A stretch of 64,000 nucleotides of DNA from the NCBI GenBank assembly GCA_963706715.1, contig CAVPNI010000002.1:448001-512000 (forward strand), written 5' to 3'. The stretch is from an uncultured Verrucomicrobiae bacterium. GTDB taxonomy: Bacteria; Verrucomicrobiota; Verrucomicrobiia; Chthoniobacterales; Xiphinematobacteraceae. The notes below the pieces were generated by a model, which had not been told where the DNA came from, searched no databases, and saw only the letters and a list, made by a program, of their open reading frames with translations. Positions 8,174-57,151 of this stretch are shown here, in pieces. Numbering within the stretch: the first letter of the stretch is position 1; every line of letters starts with the position of its first letter. A program made the translations under genes and the position numbers.

Positions 8174-8181
8174 TTTTTTTT

Positions 8182-8220
8182 CTCCCAGAGCTCCTAAAAG
8201 TGCGTAACGTCAATTACCAA
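8182..8220. repeat. 39-bp repeat shared with 15114-15152
   Basis: ctcccagagctcctaaaagtgcgtaacgtcaattaccaa versus ctcccagagctcctaaaggtgcgtaacgtgatttaccaa. Confidence 0.75.
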
Positions 8221-8290
8221 TTATAACACCCTCATATACTTGAACCAAGGAAGCTATGAATTCCGCAGCAGTTCAGACATTCATCAAAGT

Positions 8291-11333: not shown

Positions 11334-11345
11334 TCGTTTAAACAA

Positions 11346-11416
11346 TTTGTAGCTCAAAAAGATGTTTGTTTGCAATTTTTGCTTCTAAAAGAAACTGACG
11401 AAGTCAGCGAAGTCAG
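11346..11416 (-). repeat. Palindromic element, copy C (half copy)
   Basis: tttgtagctcaaaaagatgtttgtttgcaatttttgcttctaaaagaaactgacgaagtcagcgaagtcag. Confidence 0.75.
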
Positions 11417-11456
11417 TTGACGCTTGGGGTCAATTTCCCATACTTTGCGCTCCTTG

Positions 11457-22200: not shown

Positions 22201-22998
22201 ATGATCAGGTTTTTGCTAACTATTTCGATTCTGATTTCTGCTTTTACGGCCGGTCTTGGATACTTTAATAAGAAAAAATTGGATCGTGGAAGACACGTGC
22301 TAGCAAGTACTCAGGACGAACTGAGAGTCGCCCAAGTCCGGCTGGCACAAAAGAACAAGGACGCAACCGCTACTCAGAAGCAACTCTCCGAAACTACGGC
22401 TAAATTAGAACAAACCTCTACTGCTCTTACAGTTGCACAGGAAGATCTCAAAAAAACATCCTCAAAAATCGACGATTTGAACAAGCAGGCATTGGATCAT
22501 GAGGTTCAAATTAGCAACTTAAAAAATGAAAATCTCGTACAACAGAACAAGATTAAGGAATTGACACCTACTGCATCGCCTGGGAGTCCCCAGGCTAAAC
22601 AAGAAGCGGATTGGTCTGCTCAACTCGCAGAACAAAAAGCGCTGGTAAGCAAACTACAGGCTCAGCTAGAGAGTAGCCAAAATCGAATTCAAGAATATGT
22701 AAAGAAAGACATTGAGCGACAAAAACTCCAAACACGCCTAGGACTGGAAGGAAAAGTACTCGCAGTCAATCAAGCGTGGAACTTTGTCGTTCTGAGTATT
22801 GGTGATAAAAATGGAGTCACCAACAATGCTGAAATGCTTGTCAAGCGAGGCAATCAACTGGTGGGGCGAGTGCGAGTCACATCTGTAGAACCTTCCAGTT
22901 CCATTGCTGACATCATCTCTTCCAGTCTCTCTAAAGGACTCTTTGTGCAACCAGGCGATAGCGTGATCTACGACACGTCCGATGATGAGAAAAAGTAG
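22201..22998 (+). CDS. Membrane-anchored coiled-coil hypothetical protein with a C-terminal beta domain
   Basis: N-terminal TM, long heptad region, GKVLAVNQAWNFVVLSIG...PGDSV. Confidence 0.7.
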   Translation: MIRFLLTISILISAFTAGLGYFNKKKLDRGRHVLASTQDELRVAQVRLAQKNKDATATQKQLSETTAKLEQTSTALTVAQEDLKKTSSKIDDLNKQALDHEVQISNLKNENLVQQNKIKELTPTASPGSPQAKQEADWSAQLAEQKALVSKLQAQLESSQNRIQEYVKKDIERQKLQTRLGLEGKVLAVNQAWNFVVLSIGDKNGVTNNAEMLVKRGNQLVGRVRVTSVEPSSSIADIISSSLSKGLFVQPGDSVIYDTSDDEKK

Positions 22999-23263: not shown

Positions 23264-24244
23264 GTGCTATCGTTTAAAGCAATGTCACCTGCTACAGCAA
23301 AAAGTGTTCCTGATGCCTTGAAAGATCGTTTGGGATCAGATGTTTTCATTCGAAGGAAGCGGATTGAGGAAAGAATCTTGTGCTCAAGGAATTCTCCATC
23401 GAAATACCGAGGAATGGGGAAGTTCAGATCGAGAACTTTTCTGTTTAGGTGTGCGTTGCGCATCACAGGCCTCTACGAGAGGGGATTTCGTAATTACTTG
23501 GATATCCAAATCGTGGAGCGAGAGATATTCCTATCTACACTAGCGCAAGTATTTGATGGCTTTCGAATTCTCCAACTCTCCGACCTCCATTTTACTCTTT
23601 CCGAGAAATTCTTGGATGCGCTGCTTTCCAGATTAAAAAGAATTTCCCATGAAATGAAACCCTGTGATGTCGCAGTCTTCACCGGAGATTACTGTGCCAA
23701 AGTGGGACATAATCATGCTCAGGTCTTAAGAGACATGGAGCATGTTCTTGGTGTGCTGAAGATACCGAGTTGGGGAATTCTCGGAAACTATGATTTTCTG
23801 GAATTGGCTCCCTCTTTCGAGCAGCTCGGGCTCCGAATGCTTCTCAACGAGCACGACGAAATCAAAAAAGAAGAAGAGCGCCTTTTTATCTGTGGAGTGG
23901 ATGATCCTGCCTTATTTCAAACGCATGACCTGGTGCGTGCTCGACAAGGGATTTCTCGGGGAGAATGTACAATCCTACTGGCCCATAGCCCGCAAATTTC
24001 GAAGGAGGCGGTAGCATCGGAGTATTCTCTAATGCTTTCCGGACACACCCATGGAGGACAAGTTTGCTTTCCTGGGGGAATGCCAGTGATCAACAAAACC
24101 CATATTCTGGGTTCCCTGATGCGTGGAGAATGGCAAGAGGGGCCTCTCCTTGGATATACTTCTCCTGGAACCGGAGTCTCTCAGTTGCCTGTACGATTTA
24201 ATTGTCCGGGCGAAATCACAATTCATACTCTGCGGCGTTTGTAG
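23264..24244 (+). CDS. Calcineurin-like metallophosphoesterase (YkuE-like)
   Basis: SDLH, TGDY, GNYD, AHSP, SGHTHGGQ; start uncertain. Confidence 0.85.
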   Translation: MLSFKAMSPATAKSVPDALKDRLGSDVFIRRKRIEERILCSRNSPSKYRGMGKFRSRTFLFRCALRITGLYERGFRNYLDIQIVEREIFLSTLAQVFDGFRILQLSDLHFTLSEKFLDALLSRLKRISHEMKPCDVAVFTGDYCAKVGHNHAQVLRDMEHVLGVLKIPSWGILGNYDFLELAPSFEQLGLRMLLNEHDEIKKEEERLFICGVDDPALFQTHDLVRARQGISRGECTILLAHSPQISKEAVASEYSLMLSGHTHGGQVCFPGGMPVINKTHILGSLMRGEWQEGPLLGYTSPGTGVSQLPVRFNCPGEITIHTLRRL

Positions 24245-24615
24245 AGTCGAGGGACTCAATGGCGCCAGATTGTTCGCTTTGTGTGGTGTCAAATTAAGGA
24301 GAATGGCATGGAATGTTCCCATTTACGTTTGCAGTCGTAGAACACACCCTCCGTCAGCAGTTATCAAAATACACTTGGTTGCCTTCTAGTGAGGAAACCG
24401 GTTGTGTATTTCCCGTGTTTAATTGCTCTGATTTTTTTGGATGCAATTTTTCTCTTTTATGGAAGCTCCAAAACTCAATAATCAAAAAAGAACAGAAACA
24501 GTAGGTTAATATTTTTTCGGGCAAAATGGAAAATCTGTAAAGGTCTGATAGTCCAATAAATTTTAAGCACCTGTTTAGGGATTTATTCTTGAATGTGGTG
24601 TATCTAGAGATCCAT

Positions 24616-25032
24616 ATGAAATCTCTTGATACCTCTATTCTGACCGATGGTTTTCCACCTCTGTCTCAACTGGCACTAATTGACTTTCGCAATCTGTCGG
24701 TTCCAGAAACCTGGTTGCCTGGTTTCTTTTCCATAATTCCACAGATATTAATTGGTTTTGGAGGGGATTTGCTGAACGGCAATGCCATAAATAGTATCTT
24801 TTTAATAGCTAAGTTAGAGGATGCTTTGCAGAAGGGGCTTAGAATTATTTCTCTGTTTGCATTTATCGTAGCAACTATTGTGGTGATGTACGGCGGTTAT
24901 CAAATTCGCACCGGAAATCCGGATGCGGGGAAAATGTCCATTCTTGGCGGACTGGTGATTGGTCTGGCGGTAATCATCGTGACGAGCATTTTTGAAATTG
25001 CCGATCTGCCGGTTTTAAAAGTGACGAAATAA
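24616..25032 (+). CDS. VirB2/TrbC-like pilin
   Basis: Leader followed by two hydrophobic helices linked by GGYQIRTGNPDAGKMSILGG; first gene of a T4SS-like operon. Confidence 0.6.
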   Translation: MKSLDTSILTDGFPPLSQLALIDFRNLSVPETWLPGFFSIIPQILIGFGGDLLNGNAINSIFLIAKLEDALQKGLRIISLFAFIVATIVVMYGGYQIRTGNPDAGKMSILGGLVIGLAVIIVTSIFEIADLPVLKVTK

Positions 25033-25038
25033 GCTGAT

Positions 25039-25374
25039 TTGAAGGTTATGCCACTGCCACTTACAGATACTTGTGCTGGGAACGATTCGGATGGGAAGAT
25101 TTGGGGAATCGAAGGAACCAATTTATTGATCATACTCTTCGGCCTTCTTTTGTCTTTGGGATTTATTGTTCTGATTTGGATGAAGTCCGAACGTATTTTA
25201 CTGGGTCCTTTACTATTAAGTCTCATTCCGCTGATTTCAGCTTTGAGTTATGTTTTGTTTTTCCGTCAAGGAAAGCCAAAAGGATTCGATACGGATTTGA
25301 TAGAAACGCTTGTGGTTGGCAAAGGCTGGATGCCGGATTTCCGAAGCCGAAAAAGCAAAGGACTTAAATCGTAA
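25039..25374 (+). CDS. VirB3-like inner membrane protein
   Basis: Small two-TM protein (KIWGIEG...GKPKGF) directly before the VirB4-like ATPase. Confidence 0.6.
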   Translation: MKVMPLPLTDTCAGNDSDGKIWGIEGTNLLIILFGLLLSLGFIVLIWMKSERILLGPLLLSLIPLISALSYVLFFRQGKPKGFDTDLIETLVVGKGWMPDFRSRKSKGLKS

Positions 25375-25415
25375 ATTAACATCAAAATAGTTTAGACAGA
25401 GCGGAGAACCGTACT

Positions 25416-28100
25416 ATGAAAACGCCCGATGGTTGGATTTTTTCGGATCTGATAATTTGGAATGAGTTTGATACGCGAGGTTTTGCAGCACAGGGATGTA
25501 CGATTGAGATGCCGGATCTCCGGCAAGCTGCCGATACTACTCTGATCACATTACACGAAGCGCTCCGAGTGTTTCTCAAATCCTTGGACGAATCGATACG
25601 GCTCCAGTTTCGATGGTCCGTTGATAGCGATTATATCAGAGAGCTCCGTCGTTATCAGGCAGATACCGGACAGCGGCAGCAAACTCAGTGGTCTCGCCGG
25701 ACACGTCAGGAACGTTTCGACCGTTATTTTCAGGCTATGGAAGCGGGCCTCCTGCGAAGGGAACGTCTGGTCTTATTTCTCTCGCGTCGAATTCCGGCTG
25801 ATCCCCCTCAGGGAGCAAGCGACTCTCAATTAACGCTCCATTTTCAGCAACTAGCTCAACAAATGAACTTAGCTTTTCAGCAAAATTTTCAGATTTTAGA
25901 GGGATTATTAGACCAATTTGGGACGCGAATCCAACCGATGGATTCGAAACAACTGGCACGCTATTTTGCACTTTTTCTTAATCCCTCCTATACTAAACGT
26001 GCTGATTTTGAGCCGTGCGCCTCATTTGACCTTTCCATTCAGGAAAATTTTTGGAACGGGGGCTGCCAAGGTGGAAAAACGTTTGGGTTCTATTTGGATG
26101 GCTTTCTTCATAATTTAATTGTGTTAAAGCGACGGCCGCAGCGAACTTTCCCAGGCATTATTTATGCCCTCACAAATTTGCCCTTCCTGGATTATGCGCT
26201 TACAATAAACATCCAACCTCTTAATACCTTAAAAGAAATCGAAAAGGAGGAACGCGCCCTCCAGCGAGTACGTGGGGATTATACCTCAGAAGGCAAGTAC
26301 TCCTTGCTCACCGCCGTTCGAGTGAAGGAAGCGCGAATTCAAGAATTAGCTCAAGGAAATGTGGCGCCTTTCCGCTACGAGTTTTATGTCCATGTTTGGG
26401 ATGAAGATGCGACCTCTCTTGTGTCAAAGACCCGTCAAATCGAGGCGGCAATTCAGCAAATGGCGGAGGCACAGTCTTGGACAAGCAATCTTTCCAGTCC
26501 CGCTTGCACTAAAAATGTTTGGATTCAGACCTGGCCCGGATGGCTTTGGGGAACCTATACCTGTCATGCGGATACGGGACTGGATAGCTGGTTAGCGGAT
26601 CTTCTCCCCTTTTCTTCCTCATTTACAGGAATGATTGAAGGGGCGGAAGCGATTTATGAGGGGTCAAACCGAAATTTGATTGGGATACAAAATTTTGTTT
26701 CCAACACTCCCCAGCCAGCGGTGATTCTCGGAATGACAAGGGCAGGAAAATCCGCATTCATGTGTGATCTTCTCTCTCAGACACAGCCCTTCTACGACTT
26801 TACCTTAATTGTTGAAGAGGGTCTTTCTTATGGGACTTGGACACAGGCACAAGGGGAAATTCCTCTGATTATCAGTGCGGATGGCGAACTTACGTTGAAT
26901 TATTTTGATACCCAAGGTGGGCCCTTGACACGCACGCAGATCACTACTGCTGCGGCCCTCGTCCTAAAAATGAGCGGCGTTCCCCAAGAGGAGGATCGGC
27001 GCAACCTTCGGCTCGCGCAAATCGGACAATACGTAGAACAGCTCTATGACGATACGGCGCGGGAATGGCTGCAAAAACGTCCGAACGAGTGCGTTCGCTT
27101 GGCGCGACTGGCGCTTTATCTCAGAGATCTGCAACGCAACAAGATGCCGCTCAATTCCACATTTCAAGATGCCTGGTTGGAATTTCATCGGCAACTAGGG
27201 GAAGAGGGGGATGAAAGCTACAATGATGATTTTAGCGAACAAGAAGTCTCTCAGTTCCTTCAGGAGCCTGATTCAGCAAAGCTCATTCGTAATCTGACGT
27301 ATGCATTTTTTGATCCCCAAGATTATCCGACGCATGACCTCCTGTACGAAATGATGCTGGTCGCGCCTTTTTCTGAGCACGACAAGGAAGAAATCAAACA
27401 ACTCACCACTCTATTAGCCCCCTGGTGCGAGCAACGCTTGCTCTGCGGAAAAAGCACCGTTTCGATGCATCGAGCGATTGCTCATTTTGAACTTGGATTT
27501 ATTCAAGAATCCGACCGCACTCTAAAAGAAATTGCGGGATTTCTTATTGCTAATTATGGACGGCAGCACGTCCTGAATATGCCGCGCCGCGCGAGAAAAC
27601 GCGTGATCTTCGAAGAGGTCGCCCGGCTTTTGGATGTGTCCGGAGGCGATCATCTGGTCGCGGAATTCTATGCTCAATTGTCCAAATTCAATACATGGAT
27701 CGTCTCCATTGTTCAACAATATAGTCGTTTTAAGGAAAGTTGCATCCGGCCGGTGGTCTTTGGAAATGCCAAGCAGTTTTTCTTTATGCGCATGAACGAC
27801 CGGAGAGACGTGGATGATGTTGCATTCGATATTAATCTTTCCGAATCCTCGCGACAAATTATTTGTCGCCACCCGCTCCCCGAACATCTGCCGCAGGAGA
27901 ATAAGTATTCTGCGCTCACTTATTATCACCTGGATGCAAAACAGCCACTATGCGGAAGCATCCACAACCGTGTATCCCCTGAAATGCTCTACTGCGCTTC
28001 TTCCTCAGGCGATGTTTTTGATGATCGCTCCAAAAGCCTTGCCAACTGCTCCGATCCCGTCGCCACCATTGTAGAGAATGCTAAAAAAAGCAAGCAATAA
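25416..28100 (+). CDS. VirB4/TraG-like type IV secretion ATPase
   Basis: 894 aa; Walker A ILGMTRAGKS, LNYFD, Walker B-like VIFEEVAR, SKFNTWIVSIVQ; operon context. Confidence 0.82.
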   Translation: MKTPDGWIFSDLIIWNEFDTRGFAAQGCTIEMPDLRQAADTTLITLHEALRVFLKSLDESIRLQFRWSVDSDYIRELRRYQADTGQRQQTQWSRRTRQERFDRYFQAMEAGLLRRERLVLFLSRRIPADPPQGASDSQLTLHFQQLAQQMNLAFQQNFQILEGLLDQFGTRIQPMDSKQLARYFALFLNPSYTKRADFEPCASFDLSIQENFWNGGCQGGKTFGFYLDGFLHNLIVLKRRPQRTFPGIIYALTNLPFLDYALTINIQPLNTLKEIEKEERALQRVRGDYTSEGKYSLLTAVRVKEARIQELAQGNVAPFRYEFYVHVWDEDATSLVSKTRQIEAAIQQMAEAQSWTSNLSSPACTKNVWIQTWPGWLWGTYTCHADTGLDSWLADLLPFSSSFTGMIEGAEAIYEGSNRNLIGIQNFVSNTPQPAVILGMTRAGKSAFMCDLLSQTQPFYDFTLIVEEGLSYGTWTQAQGEIPLIISADGELTLNYFDTQGGPLTRTQITTAAALVLKMSGVPQEEDRRNLRLAQIGQYVEQLYDDTAREWLQKRPNECVRLARLALYLRDLQRNKMPLNSTFQDAWLEFHRQLGEEGDESYNDDFSEQEVSQFLQEPDSAKLIRNLTYAFFDPQDYPTHDLLYEMMLVAPFSEHDKEEIKQLTTLLAPWCEQRLLCGKSTVSMHRAIAHFELGFIQESDRTLKEIAGFLIANYGRQHVLNMPRRARKRVIFEEVARLLDVSGGDHLVAEFYAQLSKFNTWIVSIVQQYSRFKESCIRPVVFGNAKQFFFMRMNDRRDVDDVAFDINLSESSRQIICRHPLPEHLPQENKYSALTYYHLDAKQPLCGSIHNRVSPEMLYCASSSGDVFDDRSKSLANCSDPVATIVENAKKSKQ

Positions 28101-28219
28101 TATGTAATACGATAAAGCAGGATTTTAATAAATAGTTATCATCTGCTGAGAGCCTGAGAGATCAGAATATTTGCGATAAGCAGCAACAAAATTAATAAAA
28201 CTAATAAAATAAAATCATA

Positions 28220-28588
28220 ATGAAAAATATATCGATAAAACTTCCATACCGTTGTTTCAGGGATGGCACCTTAGCAGTTGTTATTTTTGCTTCAGGAGCA
28301 CAAACCGGCTGTCTTTCCCCCGAATCGGCTTACTCACTGGGAGGAGCCACACTTGGCGGCCTTTCAGGCGTTTTGGCATCAGCCCACAATCCACGGATCA
28401 CACCATTTGCTGCCGCAGGAGGCGCAGCAGTGGGGGGCCTGATGAGTGGCATGGCAATAAAGGCGGTCAAGTCGGGACGCTATGCCGCATTTCAAGAAGG
28501 CTATCAAAATGGCGCCTCCGACACCGCTAAGCGGCAATATTGGATTCTGCAAAATTTGCAAAAAGAACCAAGTAACAAAATTAAATAA
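28220..28588 (+). CDS. T4SS-associated glycine-zipper lipoprotein
   Basis: Lipobox-like QTGC, GxxxG repeats, EGYQNGASDTAKRQYW. Confidence 0.6.
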   Translation: MKNISIKLPYRCFRDGTLAVVIFASGAQTGCLSPESAYSLGGATLGGLSGVLASAHNPRITPFAAAGGAAVGGLMSGMAIKAVKSGRYAAFQEGYQNGASDTAKRQYWILQNLQKEPSNKIK

Positions 28589-28655
28589 AATGCCTGCTTG
28601 CTCAGTCAATAGTACCGAACGAACAACCATTTCAGTATGAAAATAGTCATCAAAA

Positions 28656-29639
28656 ATGAAAACGCCATACTTAATTATAGGTATTATTCTATTTTCTTCA
28701 AAAACTATTTTTGCACAATCGGCGGTGATAGACGTTGCTGCTGTTTCCGCACTTCAGATGCTTCTTATGGCTCAGAAAAAAGAGCAAGTGTCGGAAGAAA
28801 TACGGCACCGGCAGCGAATTACAAAACAGACGATGCAGCACAGCGAAACGCTCTCCCAATGGAGTGCTAATTTCGCTCGCCTGAAGGAACACTGGAAAGT
28901 CTTAGATAAGACACGCGGCCTCATTAATGAACAATTAGGATTTATCAAACAACTTCAAAATGCGACAGGGAACCCCGTAAAGCTGGTAGATCTTACTTTT
29001 CGGCATATTGATAAAGAAATCTTTTCCCGAGGTGGACTTGTTGACGACATTTCGGGTTGGCTCAAAAAATCTGAAAATTTTAGCGAGTGGGGAAAACTCT
29101 TGGAGGAACTTTTTAAGCCTTTTGATATTAATAAATTGAATAGTGATGAACTTGAGAAGTCCAGATTAGAGCGCCGCAAAGCCATTGACCGGGCATATCG
29201 AGAAGCCGAAGCTTTGCACGCCAAAACTAGGACACTCCAGCAAAAACTCGTGGAATTTATTCAAGGTGTGCGTGTTCATGCGGGAGCGTCAACTACACTC
29301 ACCGGAATGCAAAAAGTCGGCCTTCATCTTGCAGTTACAGAAAAGGGGATGCGTTCCGCAATGGAAATTGGGGAAGACCTAGCAAGACGCCTGGGGAACC
29401 TTAAGACCCGTGCGGATAATCGAGATGTTCTGGAAGACGAAGCGGAGAGGCAGGAGTGCAACAAGAAACATAAAGAAGCAGCGGAAAGAGCGTCAATACG
29501 CGCGCGGATTACCTATGACGATATCCGACGCCGAAGAAGACCGCGAAATCACATTTCAGCGGGTGTATCGATAGGAAATAAAGGAAAGATAAAAACTCGG
29601 ACCTCCATGCGGGTGAACGTGCCTATAAAGATGAACTGA
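28656..29639 (+). CDS. VirB5/TrbJ-like secreted helical protein
   Basis: Signal peptide, AQSAVIDVAA N-terminus, coiled-coil body, position before the VirB6-like gene. Confidence 0.55.
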   Translation: MKTPYLIIGIILFSSKTIFAQSAVIDVAAVSALQMLLMAQKKEQVSEEIRHRQRITKQTMQHSETLSQWSANFARLKEHWKVLDKTRGLINEQLGFIKQLQNATGNPVKLVDLTFRHIDKEIFSRGGLVDDISGWLKKSENFSEWGKLLEELFKPFDINKLNSDELEKSRLERRKAIDRAYREAEALHAKTRTLQQKLVEFIQGVRVHAGASTTLTGMQKVGLHLAVTEKGMRSAMEIGEDLARRLGNLKTRADNRDVLEDEAERQECNKKHKEAAERASIRARITYDDIRRRRRPRNHISAGVSIGNKGKIKTRTSMRVNVPIKMN

Positions 29640-29766
29640 AGACGAAGGATTCTATAAGATTATCGAGAATTACATAAAATAACAAAAAAGTCGTAATTAA
29701 TGATATGGTAGGTTGAAATGTATTAAGCTAATTTAGCCTTCACTGATGTAAATACGTATAAAAATA

Positions 29767-31137
29767 ATGGGAACTAAAAATATGGAAGCCGACGCACTAG
29801 CATATGCCTTGCGACAATCGTTACTCCCGATTTCGTATGTTTTGTGTGTTTTGGGATTCTGGGAGACTTTATGGCATCAAGCTACAGAAGTTAAGGTAAT
29901 CTTAGGAGCCATTCTCCGAGTTCTAATAGTTGCTGTATTTGTGTGGCAATACCCTAATTTTATTGATGCTGCGCGTGAATCGCTCAGTGGATTTAGAAAA
30001 GAAGTTTTTGGTCATGCGGCCGAGATGAAATCTAAAAATGCTCAAGTGAGCGAAACGGAATTTAAGAGGGCTCTAACGGCTCCGGTGAACGTACAACCCT
30101 CAACTTGGGATTTCACAGGTCAGATCTGTGCTGCACTCGTTCATTCTTTGCAGGGACTCGGACAGGTCATGTTGTCCATTTTGCTATTTCTACAAGAATT
30201 CTGTTTGGAAGGTCTCATTGCGATTTCGCCCATTTTATTAGGTTTTCTGGGATGGAACCTCACTCGGCCCATGGGGATTCAGTTTTGTCTCACAACAGTG
30301 GGAATTTTGCTCTGGGAGGTAGGGGTATTAATTGTAGATGTGCTTTTGCTGAGTTTCGGAGAGGAATACCTTAAGCCCACTTTAGAGGCAGCGGCGACAA
30401 TCGGCACTGCAGGAGCCATTACAGGAGTTGCTTCTTGGCCTTTGTTACTGAGCGCAATGGTCATTGCGGCGCTCACTCCAGCGTTTTTGTACCTTTCCGT
30501 ACCCTTTATCATTGCCACCGTTTTACGCGGTGGTGATCCCACCGCGCCTTTACTTCTTAAGGCTATGCAAATGGCCACCTCGGCATCAGGGGCCGCCGGC
30601 GCAATGATGCCGGGCTTAACAAGAGCGTTTGCGGCAGCAGGGTCGCCGCTTGGCAATTTGCTCCGAGGCGGAGGCGCTTTAGCAACCGCCGGAGGCGGAG
30701 GTAGAAACAGTTTTGCTGAGGCTGCAACGGCTGGAAACGCTCATTCCGATTCCGCTCCAATCGCTCATTCAGGAGGCATGAATGAGGGCGCGACATCACC
30801 TCCACCGCTTGCGACAAGTTCTTCAAAAAATTGCGGCGGCTCGCCGGGTTCGCCAGGAACAACGCTTCCGGGGATTTCTCTTGATGGCAGTGGTCGTGAT
30901 AAACCCGGAAAATCCGATGCTAAGATCGGAGATGCCTACGTTGGGAAACACGGTCATGTATTTAAGCAGCTCACACCGACAGAGTTCTCTTGTCAACATC
31001 CTCGGACAGGATTCACCTCCCAGCACGAAGGGAATATCGGGTCGCGTGAGGTGGCAGACAATGCCTTGTTGCTTCACAACAAGAATAGGATGGCTGCTGG
31101 CGACATGAGCAAAAAGCGCAAACCAAAATCAGCCTGA
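29767..31137 (+). CDS. VirB6/TrbL-like polytopic membrane protein
   Basis: Multiple TMs, ISPILLGF, LLWEVG, SVPFIIA, and a Gly/Ala/Ser-rich C-terminal tail typical of TrbL. Confidence 0.7.
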   Translation: MGTKNMEADALAYALRQSLLPISYVLCVLGFWETLWHQATEVKVILGAILRVLIVAVFVWQYPNFIDAARESLSGFRKEVFGHAAEMKSKNAQVSETEFKRALTAPVNVQPSTWDFTGQICAALVHSLQGLGQVMLSILLFLQEFCLEGLIAISPILLGFLGWNLTRPMGIQFCLTTVGILLWEVGVLIVDVLLLSFGEEYLKPTLEAAATIGTAGAITGVASWPLLLSAMVIAALTPAFLYLSVPFIIATVLRGGDPTAPLLLKAMQMATSASGAAGAMMPGLTRAFAAAGSPLGNLLRGGGALATAGGGGRNSFAEAATAGNAHSDSAPIAHSGGMNEGATSPPPLATSSSKNCGGSPGSPGTTLPGISLDGSGRDKPGKSDAKIGDAYVGKHGHVFKQLTPTEFSCQHPRTGFTSQHEGNIGSREVADNALLLHNKNRMAAGDMSKKRKPKSA

Positions 31138-31142
31138 ATCCT

Positions 31143-31859
31143 ATGAAAGAGAACCAAAGTGACGTTGATCAAAGTGCTCCGGTTCCCCTTTGCAAAAGCG
31201 CTTCCAAACCATCCACCAAAACGAATTGGCTAAAAAATGGGGCGGCATGGGTAATAGCTAATAACCGCATCGCAGCTCGTTTTTGGATGAGCATGTCACT
31301 GATCCTTGCAGCATGGGGTTTTGCCTCGCCTTTATGGTTAACATCGATTCTGAAAGAGCAAGAAAGAGTTGTTATTTTAGACCCCGCCGGAACACTGATT
31401 TATTCTGCTATTTTGGGTTTTGAAGAAGCGGGACAGCTCCACGCCTATCACGCCCGGCTTGCTGCGCTTGCCTTTCTTCAACGAAATCCTGAAGGACTGG
31501 ATCTTCCCGAGCTCTTCGAGCGCATATTTATTGAACCGGCACGTTCCGAAGGCGACCGCTTATTGGCTTTAGATGCGCAAGAATTTTCGGAAAAACAAAT
31601 TCATCAAAAATGCGAAATTACACGCATTGATATTATGGAAAGCCGCCGCATTAAAGATGGGTCCGGTCAGTCTTACGAAGCAATTTCTATTAAAAGTAAT
31701 GGAAATTTAGTTCGTACAGGCTCCTTAGGTGAAATGGAATTTCGTGAAGCTGCGGAATTCGAATTAATTTTGGAATTTATTCGAAATCCCGATCTTCTAA
31801 AAAATGGCTTACTGCCCCTCGTGGTGTATAACTTGCATTATTCTGAGAAACTCTTGTGA
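31143..31859 (+). CDS. VirB8/TrbF-like protein
   Basis: Single TM, VVILDPAG, periplasmic alpha/beta domain ending RNP...PLVV. Confidence 0.62.
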   Translation: MKENQSDVDQSAPVPLCKSASKPSTKTNWLKNGAAWVIANNRIAARFWMSMSLILAAWGFASPLWLTSILKEQERVVILDPAGTLIYSAILGFEEAGQLHAYHARLAALAFLQRNPEGLDLPELFERIFIEPARSEGDRLLALDAQEFSEKQIHQKCEITRIDIMESRRIKDGSGQSYEAISIKSNGNLVRTGSLGEMEFREAAEFELILEFIRNPDLLKNGLLPLVVYNLHYSEKLL

Positions 31860-32758
31860 TTCAATTTCTTTGCATGAAATTTACCTATTTTGAGAGCCAC
31901 TTCGAAGATGTGCTCTGTTATTTTCGGAGAAGCATTTTCTTGCTTACATCAACGAGTCTCTTCAGTATTTGTTTTGCAGAGCCTGTTCAGCCCATTATTC
32001 ATAAGCAACTCGATGAAAATGTAATCTATGGGATTAGAGTTGCCCGCCATACTGGAACTACAACCGTCCTTTTTCCAGCCCCTATTGCTGGGATCTATGG
32101 ACAGAAGGTGGCGAAGGCGCCGCAAGACAATGCTGATTTTCTGATCAATTTTGTTCCGGGAAGTTTTCATTTTACCCTGCATGCCTTACACGAAAAGGCG
32201 GAGGATAGACTCACGGTGATCTTTGAAAGAAAGGCCTATGTCTTGCACCTGAGCGCTGCGGATGATGCGCATTTCACTGTTTCTTTTTATTATCCAAGCC
32301 GGATTGCTTCAGGAAAATTTCTGGTGACTCCTGAAAAGCTTCTTTCGATTTTGGATCGTGCAAAAGCATACGGTCTTTTAAAAAGCGGCGCGCCGGATGC
32401 ATTGGTTGGTGTGGAGCGCACTACTCCTGATCGAGAGATCCACTACGAAGGATTTCGAGTGATCCTCCGAGAAGTCTTTCGATTTGATCCGGAGGATGTT
32501 CTGGTTTTTCATATAGAGTTTGAAAATGAGTCCGATCACTTAATTCGTTACCGGCCCGATCAACTTGCAGCACGCCTAGGGGATCGCATTTATGGTCAAA
32601 CTATTGCTGATGCTTCCGGAGTCATCCCTCAGAATGCTAGAACAAACGCCTTTTTTGTAATTACAGGCATGCCGGGCGGAGGAAGAAACAACCTCCGGGC
32701 TGAGAATCCGTGGAATATTTTGGTAGCCCGAGCTGGGCAGGAGGCGACGTCTAAATGA
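31856..32758 (+). CDS. VirB9/TrbG-like outer-membrane core complex protein
   Basis: Signal peptide, TTTVLFP, LTVIF...YVL beta-rich domains; lies between the VirB8-like and VirB10-like genes. Confidence 0.6.
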   Translation: MIQFLCMKFTYFESHFEDVLCYFRRSIFLLTSTSLFSICFAEPVQPIIHKQLDENVIYGIRVARHTGTTTVLFPAPIAGIYGQKVAKAPQDNADFLINFVPGSFHFTLHALHEKAEDRLTVIFERKAYVLHLSAADDAHFTVSFYYPSRIASGKFLVTPEKLLSILDRAKAYGLLKSGAPDALVGVERTTPDREIHYEGFRVILREVFRFDPEDVLVFHIEFENESDHLIRYRPDQLAARLGDRIYGQTIADASGVIPQNARTNAFFVITGMPGGGRNNLRAENPWNILVARAGQEATSK

Positions 32759-33831
32759 TCAATTTCCGCCACATTTGGGCATTCTTTAGGACGCCTTTTG
32801 GGCGACTTGCACTATTTTTTCTATTATTTTTCATTTTAGTAAACGGTGGAGTATTTAAGAAACGGTCACGCAATGAGCCTGAGGTCATGGAAAGAGAGGG
32901 AGCTACAGTTGCCACACACTCGCGGTTTATTCACCCAATTCCACCACTCCCTCCTAAAAAAGTAATCTCCAGTCCAATGCCGTTTGCCGGACTTATGAAG
33001 TCCATGCAGAAACCGGCTACTGACGAAGAATTGAGGGAACCGGCGACGACGCCTCCGAGGTCCTCGACTTCACCCATCCCTATGGCAATTTTCGATGCTT
33101 CAGACATGCTACCCATGCGACCCACACAGTATCTTCCCTTTGGGCGATTAATTCGATGTGAGTTAGTAAATACCGTCGACACTTCTAACATGCTAACACC
33201 TATCATTGGTCTCGTGACTAACGATGTTTGGCAGGAGGGTGAATTGATTATCCCGGCAGGGACGGAGGTTCATGGCATTGCTTCGAATCAACCGGAACGA
33301 GAGCGGATTGGAACTAATAACCACTGGATGTTGGTATTTCATGATGGGCGAGAATTGGGGGTGTCTGGCATTGCGTTAGACCATGCCCCAATACCTGATC
33401 AGGAAAGATGGGAAATTTCGGATGGTTCAGCCGGACTGCGCGGAAATATCATTCAGTCCGATCGCTATGCTGAGATGAAGGCGGTGAGTGCTGCGATGCT
33501 AGCGGCAGCTGCGGACGGTTTTATCGAAAATATCCAGTTCATCGGCCAATACAGCGGAACAACAATACGCAGAGTTCCAGGGTGGCGTACAGCCGTCGCT
33601 GCGGGAGTGGAACGGGGTGCACAACTCATTTCTCAGCGTCTTTTGGAGAGAGGAGATCCCTTCTTTGTCCGCGTGCCGGCCGGCGCCACCTTTTATCTTT
33701 ACGTTACCCAAAACGTGGATCTTCAGCAAGCTGCGATTGCCGGGTCCTCGCCGGACGGGCAGAAAGTCCGCAAAGGATCTGCCGCCCGATCCACGCAGCT
33801 TCTAAGTTTCCCGCATCCTCCTGAATCATGA
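32755..33831 (+). CDS. VirB10/TrbI-like protein
   Basis: TM, Pro-rich linker, PFGRLIRCELVNTVDT, IIPAGTEVHG, GSAGLRG, VRVPAGATFYLYV. Confidence 0.8.
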   Translation: MINFRHIWAFFRTPFGRLALFFLLFFILVNGGVFKKRSRNEPEVMEREGATVATHSRFIHPIPPLPPKKVISSPMPFAGLMKSMQKPATDEELREPATTPPRSSTSPIPMAIFDASDMLPMRPTQYLPFGRLIRCELVNTVDTSNMLTPIIGLVTNDVWQEGELIIPAGTEVHGIASNQPERERIGTNNHWMLVFHDGRELGVSGIALDHAPIPDQERWEISDGSAGLRGNIIQSDRYAEMKAVSAAMLAAAADGFIENIQFIGQYSGTTIRRVPGWRTAVAAGVERGAQLISQRLLERGDPFFVRVPAGATFYLYVTQNVDLQQAAIAGSSPDGQKVRKGSAARSTQLLSFPHPPES

Positions 33832-34397
33832 AAATCTATTTTATTACTTTCCTTGCGATCTTAGACATTGGTTGTTTTTCCTGGAGAACAGCTCAGATAC
33901 CTGTGGCGAGGGCCCTTCCAGCAAACACGGGGCCCCTGGCATCACGAAACCGAGATCGCTTACGAACGTCCGAAATAGTGAAAGCGTACCCTATCGGACG
34001 CTATGTTGATCCCGCTTCCGGACGGGTGATGCACGAGAAACACACCATCTATCGCGTGGAAGAAGACGCTGCCTGGAACACCTGGAATGAGGCAAAAGGA
34101 GAAAACAGAGCTGGCAATGGGCCAGACTCCGAGGTTTCCGCAAAAGCTCACGAAATCAGCAAGGCACATCTTGCTGCAATGGCCGAACAAAATGCTGTGT
34201 TGGAAAAAAAGATCCGAACTTTAGAAAAAGAGCATGCACGCTGTTTGGATGAACAGGGTGGTAATGAACGGCGGATAGACACCACGGATATCGTCCTTTC
34301 CACTCGACGAAGAGCGTCTGAGATCCACCGCGTACCCTTTCGGATTGAACCTCTTGTTTCCAAGGATTCCACCTCACCTCCCGCGCCAGTGCAATGA
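33828..34397 (+). CDS. T4SS-associated putative lipoprotein
   Basis: Short signal ending IGC, YPIGRYVDP...MHEKHTIYRVE, coiled coil; ATGA overlaps on both sides. Confidence 0.55.
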   Translation: MKIYFITFLAILDIGCFSWRTAQIPVARALPANTGPLASRNRDRLRTSEIVKAYPIGRYVDPASGRVMHEKHTIYRVEEDAAWNTWNEAKGENRAGNGPDSEVSAKAHEISKAHLAAMAEQNAVLEKKIRTLEKEHARCLDEQGGNERRIDTTDIVLSTRRRASEIHRVPFRIEPLVSKDSTSPPAPVQ

Positions 34398-35314
34398 ACC
34401 ACCATTTGGCCCGAAACAAACTGCGTCAATTGGAAACGCGTTTATGGGAACGTATCTGCGGTCAAGATCATGTGATCCCTAGAGTAATGTCTCTCTTGGA
34501 GCGAGGAGAACTGGGCTTGCAGCCGCGAGAGCGTCCCAGGGGATCCTTTCTTTTTCTTGGACCAACGGGCGTCGGAAAAACTCAGATGACTTTGGAAATT
34601 GCGGAATGTCTTTTTGGACAGCATGGCGCCATTCGTTTTGATATGTCCGAGTTTCTTCACCTTGATCAAGTGAAGTCGTTTGTTGGAGAGGGAAAAGATC
34701 GTCCTGGGCGGTTAGGGATAGCCCTGGAAGCCCATAGGACGGGAGTTTTGCTATTCGATGAAATTGAAAAGGCCCACCCTCGAATTTGGGATCTTTTTTT
34801 ACAGATGTTGGACGCCGCTAGGATTACTTTAGGAGATCATCGTCAATGGGACCTTTCGGGGTTTTACATAGTGTGCACAACGAATATCGGTTCGGAAAAT
34901 CTTCTTCGCCGGACGCGATTGCCGTTTGCCACCTTGGAGCGCGCGGTGCTAGGTCAATTGCATGCCCATTTTCGGCCTGAACTTGTGGCACGATTTGACG
35001 AAAAACTGGTCTTTTGTCCCCTAAGCTATTCTGTGCAGCGAAAAATTGCGGATGCTACTATTATAGCGGAGTTAGCTCGAATGGGTCGGGAAGGCTATCA
35101 TTTGGGGGTCGGAGAGTCGGCTGTTGAATTTATCATTAGGTATGGAATGCACCATTCCTTAGGAGCGCGCCCAATGAAGCAGGCCGTACTGAGATATGTT
35201 GGGGATGCGATTTGTGCCGATTTAAAAAAGGGGGGGAAAGGCTGTGGATATCTGGTGGCGGCTCCTAGTGGCGAAAGATTGACGATAGTTCCGGAAAAAC
35301 CCGACTGCGTGTAA
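34394..35314 (+). CDS. Stand-alone ClpB/ClpA D2-type AAA+ ATPase
   Basis: ICGQDH, FLFLGPTGVGKT, RFDMSEF, LLFDEIEKAHP, RPELVARFD, GARP; no N domain and no D1 domain. Confidence 0.85.
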   Translation: MNHHLARNKLRQLETRLWERICGQDHVIPRVMSLLERGELGLQPRERPRGSFLFLGPTGVGKTQMTLEIAECLFGQHGAIRFDMSEFLHLDQVKSFVGEGKDRPGRLGIALEAHRTGVLLFDEIEKAHPRIWDLFLQMLDAARITLGDHRQWDLSGFYIVCTTNIGSENLLRRTRLPFATLERAVLGQLHAHFRPELVARFDEKLVFCPLSYSVQRKIADATIIAELARMGREGYHLGVGESAVEFIIRYGMHHSLGARPMKQAVLRYVGDAICADLKKGGKGCGYLVAAPSGERLTIVPEKPDCV

Positions 35315-35600
35315 TAAAGCTGGGGCAGCTCTAGCTGCGCTGGTTTCTACAGTTGGTGGTTCGTAGTTCGCAGAGGCTCCATTGTTTGACTGAAGAAATT
35401 GTTGGATCAAGGAAAGGCGCCCGTTTCTGAAGGCTTTGAGGTCTGAATGGAGTCCCCATATCCGAAAATTTCCAATCGCCGCTAAATTATAACATCCATA
35501 TATTCAATATATTATAAACGTATGGCAAAGTTTGATACAAAACTAATTGGACAGACCAAGGGGAAATAACATACAACAGGTTGCGCCAATTGAAACTCCC

Positions 35601-57142: not shown

Positions 57143-57151
57143 GCTGGCATT

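What the first reader, a model, noticed from the sequence alone, without database searches (positions are those of the whole stretch)
24616..35314. Minimal, apparently non-conjugative T4SS-like operon ending in a Clp-type AAA+ ATPase
Seen: eleven co-oriented genes with open frames in the order pilin, VirB3-like, VirB4-like, lipoprotein, VirB5-like, VirB6-like, VirB8-like, VirB9-like, VirB10-like, lipoprotein, AAA+; the last five overlap at stop/start codons. The block sits between a metallophosphoesterase and a sodium:solute symporter. No relaxase, VirD4/T4CP, VirB11, integrase, adjacent tRNA or direct repeats were recognised. Established: conjugative elements need a relaxase and a coupling protein. 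Inference: this is either a domesticated secretion or adhesion machine (e.g. for host or competitor interaction) that may use the Clp-like ATPase as energiser or recycler, or the mating-pair remnant of a stripped ICE. Intact frames in a window otherwise full of decayed IS fragments suggest selection. Most VirB assignments other than B4 and B10 rest on position and topology.
Basis: partly seen in the sequence, partly recalled or inferred. Interest (0 to 1): 0.78.

Follow-up and report, generated by a model that had tools for sequence, protein, structure and literature searches.

The report
Chromosome-fixed type IV secretion operon with Clp-like ATPase
This is an intact, selected copy of a conjugation-type secretion machine that has lost its DNA-transfer genes, and its odd Clp-like ATPase turns out to be a standard part of a whole, apparently undescribed family of such machines in Verrucomicrobiota.

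Summary
The eleven co-oriented genes are real. VirB6 and VirB10 pass Pfam cut-offs, VirB8 and VirB9 are confirmed by predicted fold, and VirB4 is a very divergent TraC-like ATPase with intact Walker motifs. Pilin, VirB3 and VirB5 rest on weak or positional evidence.

The window holds no relaxase, coupling protein, VirB11 or integrase. The same genome carries two broken paralogous copies (40-58% identity). One sits in a complete ICE with integrase, coupling protein, relaxase, topoisomerase III and its own copy of the AAA+ gene.

The short ClpB-NBD2-like AAA+ is therefore not a local addition. It is linked to this VirB4 type in 10 of 10 positive genomes of the order sample, and shares a contig with 25 of 29 VirB4 places in a phylum sample. 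It keeps its ATPase motifs but has lost the pore-loop tyrosine.

The window copy plus the upstream metallophosphoesterase is conserved in order in two other species of the genus. dN/dS is 0.04-0.27 and synonymous divergence equals that of chromosomal genes, though the flanks differ.

Best reading: a vertically inherited, transfer-module-less derivative of an ICE machine, kept by selection. I cannot tell whether it was exapted or serves resident relaxase/coupling modules in trans.

The parts
23264..24244 (+). Calcineurin-like metallophosphoesterase (326 aa), no signal peptide. It is the only neighbour that stays attached to the block in all three species.
   Evidence: Pfam Metallophos E 9.5e-8. 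Directly upstream of the pilin gene in G001 and G002, although the outer flanks differ. dN/dS 0.13-0.14. No hydrophobic segment.
24589..25032 (+). VirB2/TrbC-like pilin candidate. The real start is probably the ATG at 24616. Two C-terminal hydrophobic helices.
   Evidence: Pfam TrbC E 0.008-0.023, below cut-off. 5 of 6 family members tested give the same weak TrbC match. Hydrophobic segments at 79-106 and 112-146. The G002 orthologue aligns from residue 10.
25039..25374 (+). VirB3-like small inner-membrane protein (111 aa, two hydrophobic segments) directly before VirB4.
   Evidence: Assigned by position and topology only: segments 21-51 and 51-76. No Pfam match in 8 of 8 family members. In the ICE-type paralogues the same domain is the N-terminus of a 587-aa coiled-coil protein.
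25416..28100 (+). VirB4/TraC-like ATPase (894 aa), very divergent.
   Evidence: NCBIfam TraC-F-type E 1.3e-10, CD1110 VirB4-like 1.6e-6, VirB4_CagE 2.4e-6, all far below cut-offs. No Pfam hit. Relatives at 44-47% identity carry PF19044/PF11130 and are named 'TraC family protein'. Walker A G-x4-GK[ST] and a Walker B-like hhhh[ED]E are conserved in 9 of 9 aligned homologues. dN/dS 0.046-0.048.
28220..28588 (+). Small glycine-zipper lipoprotein candidate (122 aa, Cys31).
   Evidence: The G002 orthologue matches Pfam Gly-zipper_Omp at E 1.1e-5, just above cut-off. The window protein itself does not match. Only the C-terminal about 30 residues are shared with the G039 loci.
28656..29639 (+). Secreted coiled-coil protein in the VirB5 position (327 aa, N-terminal signal-like segment). 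The fastest-evolving gene of the block.
   Evidence: Hydrophobic segment 6-25. No family match. Weak pairwise link (E 2e-5, 29% over 121 coiled-coil residues) to the ICE-copy protein in the same position, which matches Pfam T4SS/VirB5 PF07996 at E 2e-4, below cut-off. 49-64% identity to orthologues, dN/dS 0.14.
29767..31137 (+). VirB6/TrbL polytopic membrane protein with a long low-complexity C-terminal extension (456 aa).
   Evidence: Pfam TrbL E 2.7e-7, 31 bits against a cut-off of 25.9. Several hydrophobic segments between residues 38 and 254.
31143..31859 (+). VirB8-like bitopic protein (N-terminal helix plus NTF2-like periplasmic domain).
   Evidence: AlphaFold2 model from an 11-sequence alignment, mean pLDDT 77. 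The best Foldseek PDB matches are VirB8-family proteins: TraM, DotI, IcmL-like, R388 TrwG, CagV, Brucella VirB8, pKM101 TraE (E 2e-4 to 9e-3, TM by target up to 0.74). 3 of 11 family members weakly match Pfam VirB8 and 1 matches TraE.
31856..32758 (+). VirB9-like outer-membrane core protein (two beta-sandwich domains).
   Evidence: AlphaFold2 model from a 12-sequence alignment, mean pLDDT 80. All nine top Foldseek PDB matches are chains of T4SS core-complex or periplasmic-ring entries: F plasmid, pED208, Dot/Icm, Xanthomonas, and R388, whose chains are labelled TrwF/VirB9 (E 1.5e-10 to 2e-5). Weak Pfam CagX (E 0.0075) and a weak profile hit to TrwF (E 0.48) fall on the same region.
32755..33831 (+). 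VirB10/TrbI (N-terminal membrane anchor, proline-rich linker, TrbI domain).
   Evidence: Pfam TrbI E 9.7e-15, 55 bits against a cut-off of 35. Hydrophobic segment 9-36.
33828..34397 (+). Conserved lipoprotein candidate (189 aa) between VirB10 and the AAA+ gene. Possibly plays a VirB7-like role.
   Evidence: Invariant Cys16 after a hydrophobic leader, and a conserved motif around H69/E70, in 8 of 8 homologues from five genera plus an Akkermansia MAG. No family match.
34394..35314 (+). Single-ring AAA+ ATPase (306 aa) equal to one ClpB NBD2 module, lacking the canonical pore-loop tyrosine.
   Evidence: Pfam AAA_2 E 8e-29 and ClpB_D2-small E 1e-6. It aligns to E. coli ClpB residues 555-839 (E 6e-47) with a 5-residue deletion that removes 'PPGYV'. 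Walker A, Walker B, sensor-1, the R-finger position and the GARP sensor-2 are kept. The tyrosine loop is missing in 10 of 10 T4SS-linked members and present in 2 of 2 host Clp NBD2s. dN/dS 0.05-0.10.

Best explanation
The block is a complete mating-pair-formation (channel plus pilus) module of a Verrucomicrobiota-specific T4SS family. Its parts are pilin, VirB3, a TraC-like VirB4, a glycine-zipper lipoprotein, a VirB5-position protein, VirB6, VirB8, VirB9, VirB10, a second lipoprotein and a ClpB-NBD2-like AAA+. Members of this family normally ride on ICEs or plasmids with integrase, T4CP, relaxase and topoisomerase III. In this genus one lineage lost all DNA-processing and integration genes, became resident in the chromosome, and has been inherited vertically under purifying selection, together with an upstream metallophosphoesterase.

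Shown: anatomy, family membership, loss of Dtr genes in cis, orthology in three species, selection, and family-wide linkage of the AAA+.

Inferred: VirB4 powers assembly of an envelope-spanning channel and pilus. The AAA+ lacks the threading tyrosine but keeps its ATPase motifs, and it is the only non-VirB gene retained when the Dtr genes were lost. So it most likely works on the channel itself, as a VirB11-like third ATPase or assembly/remodelling factor, and not on DNA or as a classical unfoldase. Without its own coupling protein, the machine now most likely serves a host-selected contact function (pilus adhesion, contact-dependent exchange or export), not self-transfer.
For: ORFs and overlaps. 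Component identities.

No Dtr or integrase genes in the window. In the whole genome there is only one T4CP, at C3:526533-528182, inside a paralogous ICE. That ICE runs integrase - MPF - ParA - AAA+ - TopoIII - T4CP - relaxase - primase. Its VirB4 is split by a 20-kb insertion, and the other paralogous copy is cut by IS elements.

The orthologous 12-gene block is in the same order in G001 and G002. dN/dS is 0.04-0.27. pS of the block is 0.53-0.78, against 0.54-0.80 for 21 flanking chromosomal genes.

In the VirB4 tree the window clade (3 species) is monophyletic (SH-aLRT 100) and sister to ICE-borne copies.

AAA+ linkage: 10 of 10 VirB4-positive genomes in the 41-genome order sample have a short AAA+. 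25 of 29 VirB4 places in 20 further genomes share a contig with one, 20 of them within 12 kb. AAA+ and VirB4 identities to the window fall in step: 61/59, 54/54, about 46/45 and about 38/37 %. Pore-loop deletion.
Against: The outer flanks differ in all three species. That could mean movement and not just rearrangement, although these genomes are scrambled at the few-kb scale.

The genome holds an intact T4CP, a MobA/VirD2-like relaxase, an intact MOBF relaxase-primase-integrase element (C1:2998-12035) and a truncated copy of it. All of these could use the only intact channel in trans.

dS is near saturation (pS 0.53-0.78), so the ratios are rough. Pilin, VirB3 and VirB5 assignments are weak. 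The two 0.9-Mb genomes of the genus lack the system, so it is dispensable there. No substrate is identified.
Confidence: 0.55

Rival explanations
1. Split conjugation system. The block is still a mating channel and works in trans with the single T4CP and the relaxases encoded elsewhere (the C3 ICE Dtr module; the MOBF relaxase-primase-integrase element on C1). It would be kept by selection on those mobile elements.
For: In G000 it is the only intact MPF, since both C3 copies are broken. The T4CP, relaxase, TopoIII and second AAA+ on C3 are intact and conserved with G001 (79-80% identity, pN 0.12-0.14, pS 0.63-0.70). An intact MOBF relaxase element without its own MPF or T4CP exists.
Against: VirB10, the usual T4CP contact (recalled), is only 43% identical to the ICE's own. 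G001 keeps the block although it also has two full-length ICE-type VirB4 genes (C25, C27), so the block is not merely a spare. Synonymous divergence equals that of host genes in both species, as expected for host-level inheritance. Not tested experimentally.
Confidence: 0.28
2. A ComB-like DNA-uptake or DNA-release machine: a T4SS without coupling protein or VirB11, used for natural transformation.
For: The gene content (VirB2, 3, 4, 6, 7-like, 8, 9, 10; no T4CP, no VirB11) resembles the Helicobacter ComB set. That comparison is recalled, not tested. Absences in the window.
Against: No specific similarity to ComB proteins was found in any scan. The same composition plus the AAA+ occurs in the ICE-borne relatives, so it is inherited and not an adaptation. 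Competence partners (ComEC, DprA) were not examined.
Confidence: 0.08
3. A decaying remnant of a stripped ICE with no present function.
For: The Dtr and integration genes are gone, the genome holds other decaying copies, and the reduced genomes of the genus have lost the system.
Against: All 11 frames are intact in G000 and in G001. All that can be seen are intact in G002, whose contigs break inside the block. This holds at 49-90% protein identity and dN/dS 0.04-0.27. The four translationally coupled junctions are kept.
Confidence: 0.04
4. One reading: the Clp-like ATPase was recruited at domestication, as energiser or recycler of this minimal machine.
For: It ends the operon and overlaps the preceding gene.
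Against: The same gene family is linked to this T4SS type across the phylum, including complete ICEs and an Akkermansia MAG with the same VirB10-lipoprotein-AAA+ order followed by a T4CP. Its divergence tracks that of VirB4.
Confidence: 0.02

Closest known systems
Conjugative T4SS of the TraC (F-like) branch of VirB4, and VirB/Trb-type MPF operons
   Same: VirB6/TrbL and VirB10/TrbI domains. VirB8 and VirB9 folds. The VirB4 gives its best, though weak, hit to TraC-F-type, and relatives carry PF11130/PF19044. No VirB11, as in F-type systems (recalled). Gene order resembles VirB/Trb.
   Different: VirB4 is far below every curated cut-off. None of the F-specific families (TraF/H/N/U/W) appeared in the Pfam scans. 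A conserved ClpB-NBD2-like AAA+ and a conserved post-VirB10 lipoprotein are present. Of 72,556 plasmid records only two, both Opitutaceae, match the VirB4 (28% identity). There it is annotated 'hypothetical', and one of the two plasmids is typed only 'mobilizable'.
T4CP-less T4SSs: Helicobacter ComB (DNA uptake), Bordetella Ptl, Brucella VirB (all recalled, not fetched)
   Same: A functional T4SS can work without its own coupling protein and relaxase. ComB also lacks VirB11.
   Different: No sequence-level affinity was found. Here the T4CP-less state is a recent derivative of an ICE family whose other members do have a T4CP.
ClpB/Hsp104 NBD2, the NBD2-only disaggregase CLPB/Skd3, and ClpV (TssH) of type VI secretion
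   Same: AAA_2 plus D2-small architecture with intact nucleotide motifs. PDB sequence matches to ClpB NBD2 (E 6e-47) and to human CLPB (E 1e-26). NCBIfam TssH E 3.8e-36, below cut-off. Like ClpV, it is a Clp-family ATPase dedicated to a secretion apparatus.
   Different: It has a single ring module only, with no N-domain, NBD1 or M-domain. The GYVG pore-loop tyrosine is deleted, so canonical threading is doubtful. No IGF/IGL ClpP-docking tripeptide is seen on inspection. Its partners are T4SS genes, not T6SS genes.
   Same: A conjugation-channel gene block that always travels with a Clp-type ATPase without substrate-threading loops (AI note; not checked here).
   Different: A different phylum and a monoderm T4SS type, a double-ring instead of single-ring ATPase, and a VirB4 said to have lost its motifs there, whereas they are intact here.

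Membership tests
Type IV secretion system (MPF module) | VirB4-family ATPase with Walker A/B | tested here: met
   Weak TraC/VirB4 NCBIfam hits (E 1e-10 to 2e-6, below cut-offs). Relatives carry PF11130/PF19044. Motifs conserved in 9 of 9 homologues.
Type IV secretion system (MPF module) | VirB6/TrbL polytopic channel protein | tested here: met
   Pfam TrbL 31 bits against a cut-off of 25.9.
Type IV secretion system (MPF module) | VirB10/TrbI | tested here: met
   Pfam TrbI 55 bits against a cut-off of 35.
Type IV secretion system (MPF module) | VirB8 (bitopic, NTF2-like fold) | tested here: met
   Predicted fold matches TraM/DotI/TrwG/CagV/VirB8/TraE. Weak Pfam VirB8 in 3 of 11 relatives.
Type IV secretion system (MPF module) | VirB9 core-complex protein | tested here: met
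   The top nine Foldseek matches are all chains of T4SS core-complex or periplasmic-ring structures, including R388 TrwF/VirB9. Weak CagX and TrwF sequence hits.
Type IV secretion system (MPF module) | VirB2 pilin, VirB3, VirB5, VirB7 lipoprotein | tested here: inconclusive
   Pilin: sub-threshold TrbC in 5 of 6 members. VirB3: topology and position only. VirB5: an indirect weak chain only. Lipoproteins: conserved Cys and a Gly-zipper hit in one orthologue.
Type IV secretion system (MPF module) | VirB11 traffic ATPase (present in many but not all T4SS) | tested here: not met
   No T2SSE domain in the block or in the paralogous ICE regions. Of the three T2SSE genes of the genome, the one I annotated lies beside a secretin gene and the other two were not examined. 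All three lie far from every copy of the block.
Self-transmissible conjugative element (ICE) | Relaxase in cis | tested here: not met
   None in the window. Elsewhere in the genome: C3:528314-529465 (weak MobA/VirD2), C1:2998-5844 (TrwC, E 1e-75) and C4:231684-234212 (truncated). PF03389 and PF07514 gave nothing over cut-off.
Self-transmissible conjugative element (ICE) | Type IV coupling protein in cis | tested here: not met
   The only T4CP of the genome is at C3:526533-528182.
Self-transmissible conjugative element (ICE) | Integrase and attachment repeats at the borders | tested here: not met
   No integrase in the window. No flanking direct repeat. No adjacent tRNA.
Hsp100/Clp unfoldases (ClpB/ClpA/ClpC/ClpV) | AAA_2 NBD2 with D2-small domain and intact Walker A/B, sensor and arginine motifs | tested here: met
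Hsp100/Clp unfoldases (ClpB/ClpA/ClpC/ClpV) | Two AAA+ rings plus N-domain (class I architecture) | tested here: not met
   306 aa, aligning only to ClpB residues 555-839. T4SS-linked homologues have ORFs of about 295-470 aa, against about 830-950 aa for host Clp proteins.
Hsp100/Clp unfoldases (ClpB/ClpA/ClpC/ClpV) | Aromatic pore loop (GYVG) for substrate threading | tested here: not met
   A 5-residue deletion removes it in the HMMER alignment to E. coli ClpB. It is absent in 10 of 10 T4SS-linked members and present in 2 of 2 host Clp NBD2s.
MPF type F (F-plasmid-like) | F-specific assembly genes (TraF, TraH, TraN, TraU, TraW, TrbC) | tested here: not met
   None of these Pfam families was reported for the 11 block proteins or for the 139 ORFs of the paralogous ICE regions.
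ComB-type DNA-uptake T4SS | Dependence on ComEC/DprA and a transformation phenotype | not tested
   The resemblance in gene content is recalled. No search for competence genes was run.

The most novel reading that the evidence does not exclude
A ClpB-NBD2-derived, pore-loop-less single-ring AAA+ is the hallmark third ATPase of an unclassified, phylum-wide class of type IV secretion/conjugation systems in Verrucomicrobiota (with at least one Lentisphaerota relative). It acts on the channel itself in place of VirB11. In this genus, which also contains 0.9-Mb genomes, one such machine was stripped of its DNA-transfer genes and domesticated as a host-encoded contact or secretion device.
Probability: 0.3. 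Interest if true: 0.8.

Novelty: new variant of a known kind. Interest (0 to 1): 0.62.

Why it matters
T4SS classification rests on eight MPF classes (abstract of PMC4027160 as listed). The 2025 nomenclature review I searched for terms, PMC12857230, mentions neither Clp/AAA+ partners nor Verrucomicrobiota.

This locus points to a family found in 21 of 201 sampled Verrucomicrobiota genomes. Its VirB4 escapes every curated model cut-off tried, and it always brings a Clp-like ATPase. In the window copy every DNA-processing gene has been lost, yet the AAA+ remains under strong constraint. That acts as a natural dissection, assigning the ATPase to the channel and not to DNA processing, and it gives a testable entry to a new accessory motor of T4SS.

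It is also a clear case of an ICE machine becoming a resident, selected chromosomal operon. The lineage in which this happened also includes genomes reduced to 0.9 Mb.

Tried and rejected
1. Profile searches of PDB sequences with the VirB8-like and VirB9-like alignments gave nothing significant: best E 0.26 for unrelated chains, and TrwF at E 0.48. Predicted folds were needed.

2. Pfam on 8 VirB3-like members gave no relevant family.

3. The genome-contig scan with the AAA+ was swamped by ordinary ClpB/ClpC. Among the ten of the 80 loci that I checked (picked by Verrucomicrobiota-like record titles), only two (L050, L051) were T4SS-linked short forms.

4. The consensus promoter/terminator scan gave no more sites than shuffles for promoters (13 against 16.5) and nothing decisive. 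There is a weak hairpin at 35325-35338, just after the AAA+ stop.

5. The repeat search found no att-like flanking repeats.

I did not pursue expression by any other route.

7. Complex prediction was not used. I claim no specific binding partner, and VirB4 plus the AAA+ exceeds the size limit.

8. Seven literature searches and term searches in two papers found no description of a Clp-like ATPase in a T4SS or of this Verrucomicrobiota family. One search used a symbiont genus name that I only guessed from genome sizes. That guess is not established.

9. Rejected: a compositional island (G+C is not distinct) and a pseudogenised remnant.

Full report
OBSERVATION. The window (G000:C2:448001-512000) carries eleven co-oriented + strand ORFs between 24589 and 35314. 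The last five genes overlap by 4 nt at each junction. Upstream lies a calcineurin-like metallophosphoesterase (23264-24244) and downstream a sodium:solute symporter (35547-37316).

Pfam scans of 59 window ORFs show ordinary chromosomal genes all around: Fur, MMPL, sigma-54, transketolase, MutL, GlgE, L21/L27 and others. They show no relaxase, coupling protein, VirB11 or integrase. The tRNA genes are 18 kb and 25 kb away. No flanking direct repeats stand out, and G+C is not distinct. The remark that the window is otherwise full of decayed IS fragments does not hold. There is one DDE_3 fragment (53589-53900) and about 1.5 kb of DNA repeated elsewhere in the genome, mostly 70-80-bp intergenic repeats.

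COMPONENTS. Two assignments pass curated cut-offs: TrbL/VirB6 (31 bits) and TrbI/VirB10 (55 bits).

The 894-aa ATPase has no Pfam hit. It has only sub-threshold NCBIfam hits to TraC-F-type (E 1.3e-10), CD1110 VirB4-like and VirB4_CagE. Relatives at 44-47% identity carry PF19044/PF11130 and are named 'TraC family protein'. Walker A and a Walker B-like hhhh[ED]E are conserved in 9 of 9 aligned homologues.

I tested two positional assignments by structure prediction on alignments of homologues taken from related loci. The protein at 31143-31859 (pLDDT 77) folds as a membrane helix plus an NTF2-like domain, and its best PDB matches are VirB8-family proteins (TraM, DotI, IcmL-like, TrwG, CagV, Brucella VirB8, TraE). 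The protein at 31856-32758 (pLDDT 80) has, as its nine best matches, chains of T4SS outer-membrane core-complex or periplasmic-ring entries (F plasmid, pED208, Dot/Icm, Xanthomonas, and R388, where the chains are labelled TrwF/VirB9), with E 1.5e-10 to 2e-5.

The other assignments are weaker:
- The pilin gives a consistent but sub-threshold TrbC/VirB2 match in 5 of 6 family members and has two C-terminal hydrophobic helices.
- The VirB3-like protein rests on position and two hydrophobic segments only.
- The VirB5-position protein has a signal-like N-terminus and coiled coils. Its only link to the VirB5 family is indirect and weak, through the ICE paralogue.
- The two lipoprotein candidates have a conserved cysteine and, for the first, a Gly-zipper_Omp hit in one orthologue.

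THE AAA+ GENE. The last gene (306 aa) is one ClpB NBD2 module: AAA_2 plus D2-small. It aligns to E. coli ClpB residues 555-839 at E 6e-47. Walker A, Walker B, sensor-1, the arginine position and the GARP sensor-2 are kept. A 5-residue deletion removes the 'PPGYV' stretch that holds the NBD2 pore-loop tyrosine. In an alignment of ten T4SS-linked members and two host Clp NBD2 regions, all ten lack the tyrosine loop, and two of them lack the whole segment. Both host proteins have GYVGY. A classical threading unfoldase is therefore unlikely.

THE FAMILY IS AN ICE FAMILY. The same genome holds two further copies of the module on contig C3, at 40-58% protein identity.

The copy at 479-511 kb lies in a full ICE. 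Its parts, in order, are a tyrosine integrase (473235-474302), YdcK-like beta-solenoid proteins, lipoprotein-VirB10-VirB9-VirB8-VirB6-VirB5-like-VirB4, a VirB3-coiled-coil fusion, pilin, ParA/VirC1, AbiE, a group II intron, a 320-aa AAA+ paralogue (523114-524076), topoisomerase III, T4CP (526533-528182), a MobA/VirD2-like relaxase (528314-529465) and a Toprim/DUF3991 primase. Its VirB4 is split by a 20-kb insertion that carries an integrase, a D5-type primase and RHS genes.

The copy at 138-154 kb is cut by ISL3, IS630-like and DDE_Tnp_1 transposase genes. So the window copy is the only intact channel module in this genome.

Family searches of the whole genome find one T4CP. They also find an intact MOBF (TrwC) relaxase beside a primase and an integrase at C1:2998-12035, and a truncated copy of that relaxase on C4. 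The three T2SSE genes lie far from every copy of the block. The one I annotated sits beside a secretin gene, and the other two were not examined.

AAA+ LINKAGE. In a 41-genome sample of the order, 10 genomes have this VirB4 type, and all 10 have a short (about 300-450 aa ORF) AAA+ homologue. Among the 31 genomes without the VirB4 type, only one short-ORF hit appears (G013:C428, 35% identity, the level of ordinary ClpB; not inspected).

The gene sits in one of three places:
- After VirB10 and the lipoprotein: the window, G001, G002, G037, G010, and an Akkermansia muciniphila MAG where a T4CP follows.
- Divergently next to the pilin gene: G036, G031 and a Chthoniobacteraceae MAG.
- Next to T4CP/TopoIII: the G000 C3 ICE, G001:C17 and both G039 copies.

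In a 201-genome sample of the phylum, 21 genomes (19 of 103 genera) have the VirB4 type. Of the 29 VirB4 places outside G000, 25 share a contig with a short AAA+. Twenty of these lie within 12 kb and five at 19-48 kb. The other four are on short contigs or are fragments.

Identities of the AAA+ and of VirB4 to the window copy fall together: about 61/59% for G039, 54/54% for the C3 type, 44-52/44-46% for G036 and G031, and 37-39/36-38% for G037 and G010. The AAA+ is thus an inherited core gene of the family, not a recruit of this locus.

The short-AAA+ family is large: 7386 proteins at E <= 1e-10 among the 8000 candidates scored, usually named 'Clp protease ATP-binding subunit'. Only two of 72,556 plasmid records match the VirB4 (28% identity). 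Both are Opitutaceae plasmids, the gene is annotated hypothetical, and one is typed only 'mobilizable'.

THE WINDOW COPY IS RESIDENT AND SELECTED. Two other species of the genus carry the same twelve genes (metallophosphoesterase plus eleven) in the same order: G001 on contig C57, and G002 on C149 plus C179. Protein identities range from 49% (VirB5-position gene) to 90% (AAA+, VirB8-like).

Nei-Gojobori estimates give dN/dS of 0.04-0.27 in 22 of 24 comparisons. Two had pS above 0.75 and gave no estimate. Synonymous differences in the block (pS 0.53-0.78) match those of 21 flanking chromosomal orthologues (0.54-0.80). That fits vertical descent since the species split. dS is near saturation, so the ratios are rough.

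In a VirB4 tree the three window-type genes form a clade (SH-aLRT 100) that is sister to the clade of G039 and C3-type copies. Each of G001 and G002 has a single T4CP. It is orthologous to the C3 ICE's T4CP and not linked to the block, and the G002 copy has one stop codon.

The outer flanks differ in all three species. However, the contigs examined are mosaics of few-kb blocks relative to G000, so rearrangement explains this at least as well as mobility. The two 0.9-Mb genomes of the genus lack VirB4, T4CP and the short AAA+.

MECHANISM. Shown: a full set of channel genes with intact ATPase motifs, translational coupling, and purifying selection, with no cis coupling protein, relaxase or integrase.

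Inferred from established T4SS biology (recalled): VirB4 hexamers energise pilin extraction and channel assembly; VirB3/6/8 form the inner-membrane complex; VirB7-like/9/10 form the outer core; VirB2/5 form the pilus.

The locus acts as a natural deletion experiment. Every DNA-processing gene is gone, yet the AAA+ stays, is among the most constrained genes (dN/dS 0.05-0.10), and overlaps the preceding gene. I therefore place its action at the channel, as an assembly/remodelling ATPase or a VirB11-like third ATPase, and not at the relaxosome. The missing pore tyrosine argues against polypeptide threading.

What the resident machine delivers is not shown. I give about 0.55 to a host-selected, non-self-transmissible function (pilus-mediated contact, export or exchange). 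I give 0.28 to continued use as a mating channel in trans by the resident T4CP/relaxase modules, 0.08 to ComB-like DNA uptake or release, and 0.04 to a functionless remnant.

LITERATURE AND NOVELTY. Seven full-text searches returned no paper describing a Clp-like ATPase in a T4SS or this Verrucomicrobiota family. I saw only the listings and abstract openings. In the 2025 T4SS nomenclature review (PMC12857230) a term search found no 'AAA+', 'Clp', 'Verrucomicrob' or 'Planctomyc' (passages only). In PMC4701971 'Clp' does not occur (passages only). Subscription journals and supplements were not covered.

An earlier AI note of this scan (e1-1986188) reports a streptococcal plasmid T4SS that always travels with a Clp-type double-ring ATPase lacking threading loops. 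I did not test it. If it is right, Clp-derived, non-threading ATPases may be a recurrent T4SS accessory.

VERDICT. This is a real T4SS operon of a known kind of machine. It belongs to an apparently undescribed Verrucomicrobiota family, marked by a pore-loop-less ClpB-NBD2-like ATPase, and is present here as a vertically inherited, Dtr-less, selected chromosomal copy. I rate it a new variant of a known kind, with interest 0.62.

Noticed in passing
G000:C3:473235-533772 (loci L023-L027): A complete ICE of the same T4SS family: integrase, YdcK-like beta-solenoid proteins, MPF, ParA/VirC1, AbiE toxin-antitoxin, a group II intron RT, an HNH protein, a GHKL ATPase, AAA+, TopoIII, T4CP, relaxase and a Toprim primase. 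Its VirB4 is split by a 20-kb insertion carrying an integrase, a D5/PriCT primase and RHS-repeat genes.
   Followed up: partly
G000:C3:138228-154393 (loci L020-L022): A second paralogous MPF copy. Its VirB8-VirB10-lipoprotein genes give the same identities to the window proteins as those of the other C3 copy. It is interrupted by ISL3, IS630-like and DDE_Tnp_1 transposase genes, and an integrase lies at 154827-155918 next to tgt.
   Followed up: partly
G000:C1:2998-12035 (L131) and G000:C4:231684-234212 (L133): A MOBF (TrwC plus helicase) relaxase with a DnaG-type primase and a tyrosine integrase, but no MPF or T4CP. It looks like an integrative mobilizable element. A truncated second relaxase copy lies on C4, about 9 kb from a 2203-aa RHS protein with an LHH nuclease tip and a SUKH immunity-like gene.
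   Followed up: partly
window 23264-24244: The metallophosphoesterase is the only neighbour that stays attached to the T4SS block in all three species, although the outer flanks differ. It is cytoplasmic by sequence and under purifying selection, and its link to the machine is unexplained.
   Followed up: partly
window 369-448, 8164-8233, 11340-11417, 57070-57152; also 35351-35426: Short (70-80 bp) intergenic repeats with 10-27 further matches in the genome. One, with a single further match, lies directly after the AAA+ stop codon.
   Followed up: no
L025:13675-15438 and L021:17003-18766 (G000 C3); L044:7916-9286 (G001): In the ICE-type copies the VirB3-like domain is the N-terminus of a 456-587-aa coiled-coil protein, whereas in the window type it is a free-standing 111-aa protein.
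   Followed up: no
L130 (CP007054.1, Opitutaceae bacterium TAV5 plasmid, 49214-81931): A 100-kb plasmid, typed 'mobilizable' with a MOBF relaxase, carries a VirB4 homologue (28% identity) among genes nearly all annotated 'hypothetical protein', including a 6.6-kb gene just upstream. Its conjugation module seems unrecognised by standard typing.
   Followed up: no
G003 and G004 (same genus, about 0.9 Mb, one contig each): These strongly reduced genomes lack the VirB4 type, the T4CP and the short AAA+, and keep only the long Clp genes.
   Followed up: no
L035:14346-15364 (G036): The T4SS-linked AAA+ next to the pilin gene appears split into two overlapping ORFs. This could be a frameshift or a sequencing error.
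   Followed up: no
window 22201-22998: A 265-aa protein with an N-terminal hydrophobic segment and a long coiled coil (weak SMC-like hits) lies between fur and the metallophosphoesterase. It is not found next to the block in G001 or G002.
   Followed up: no
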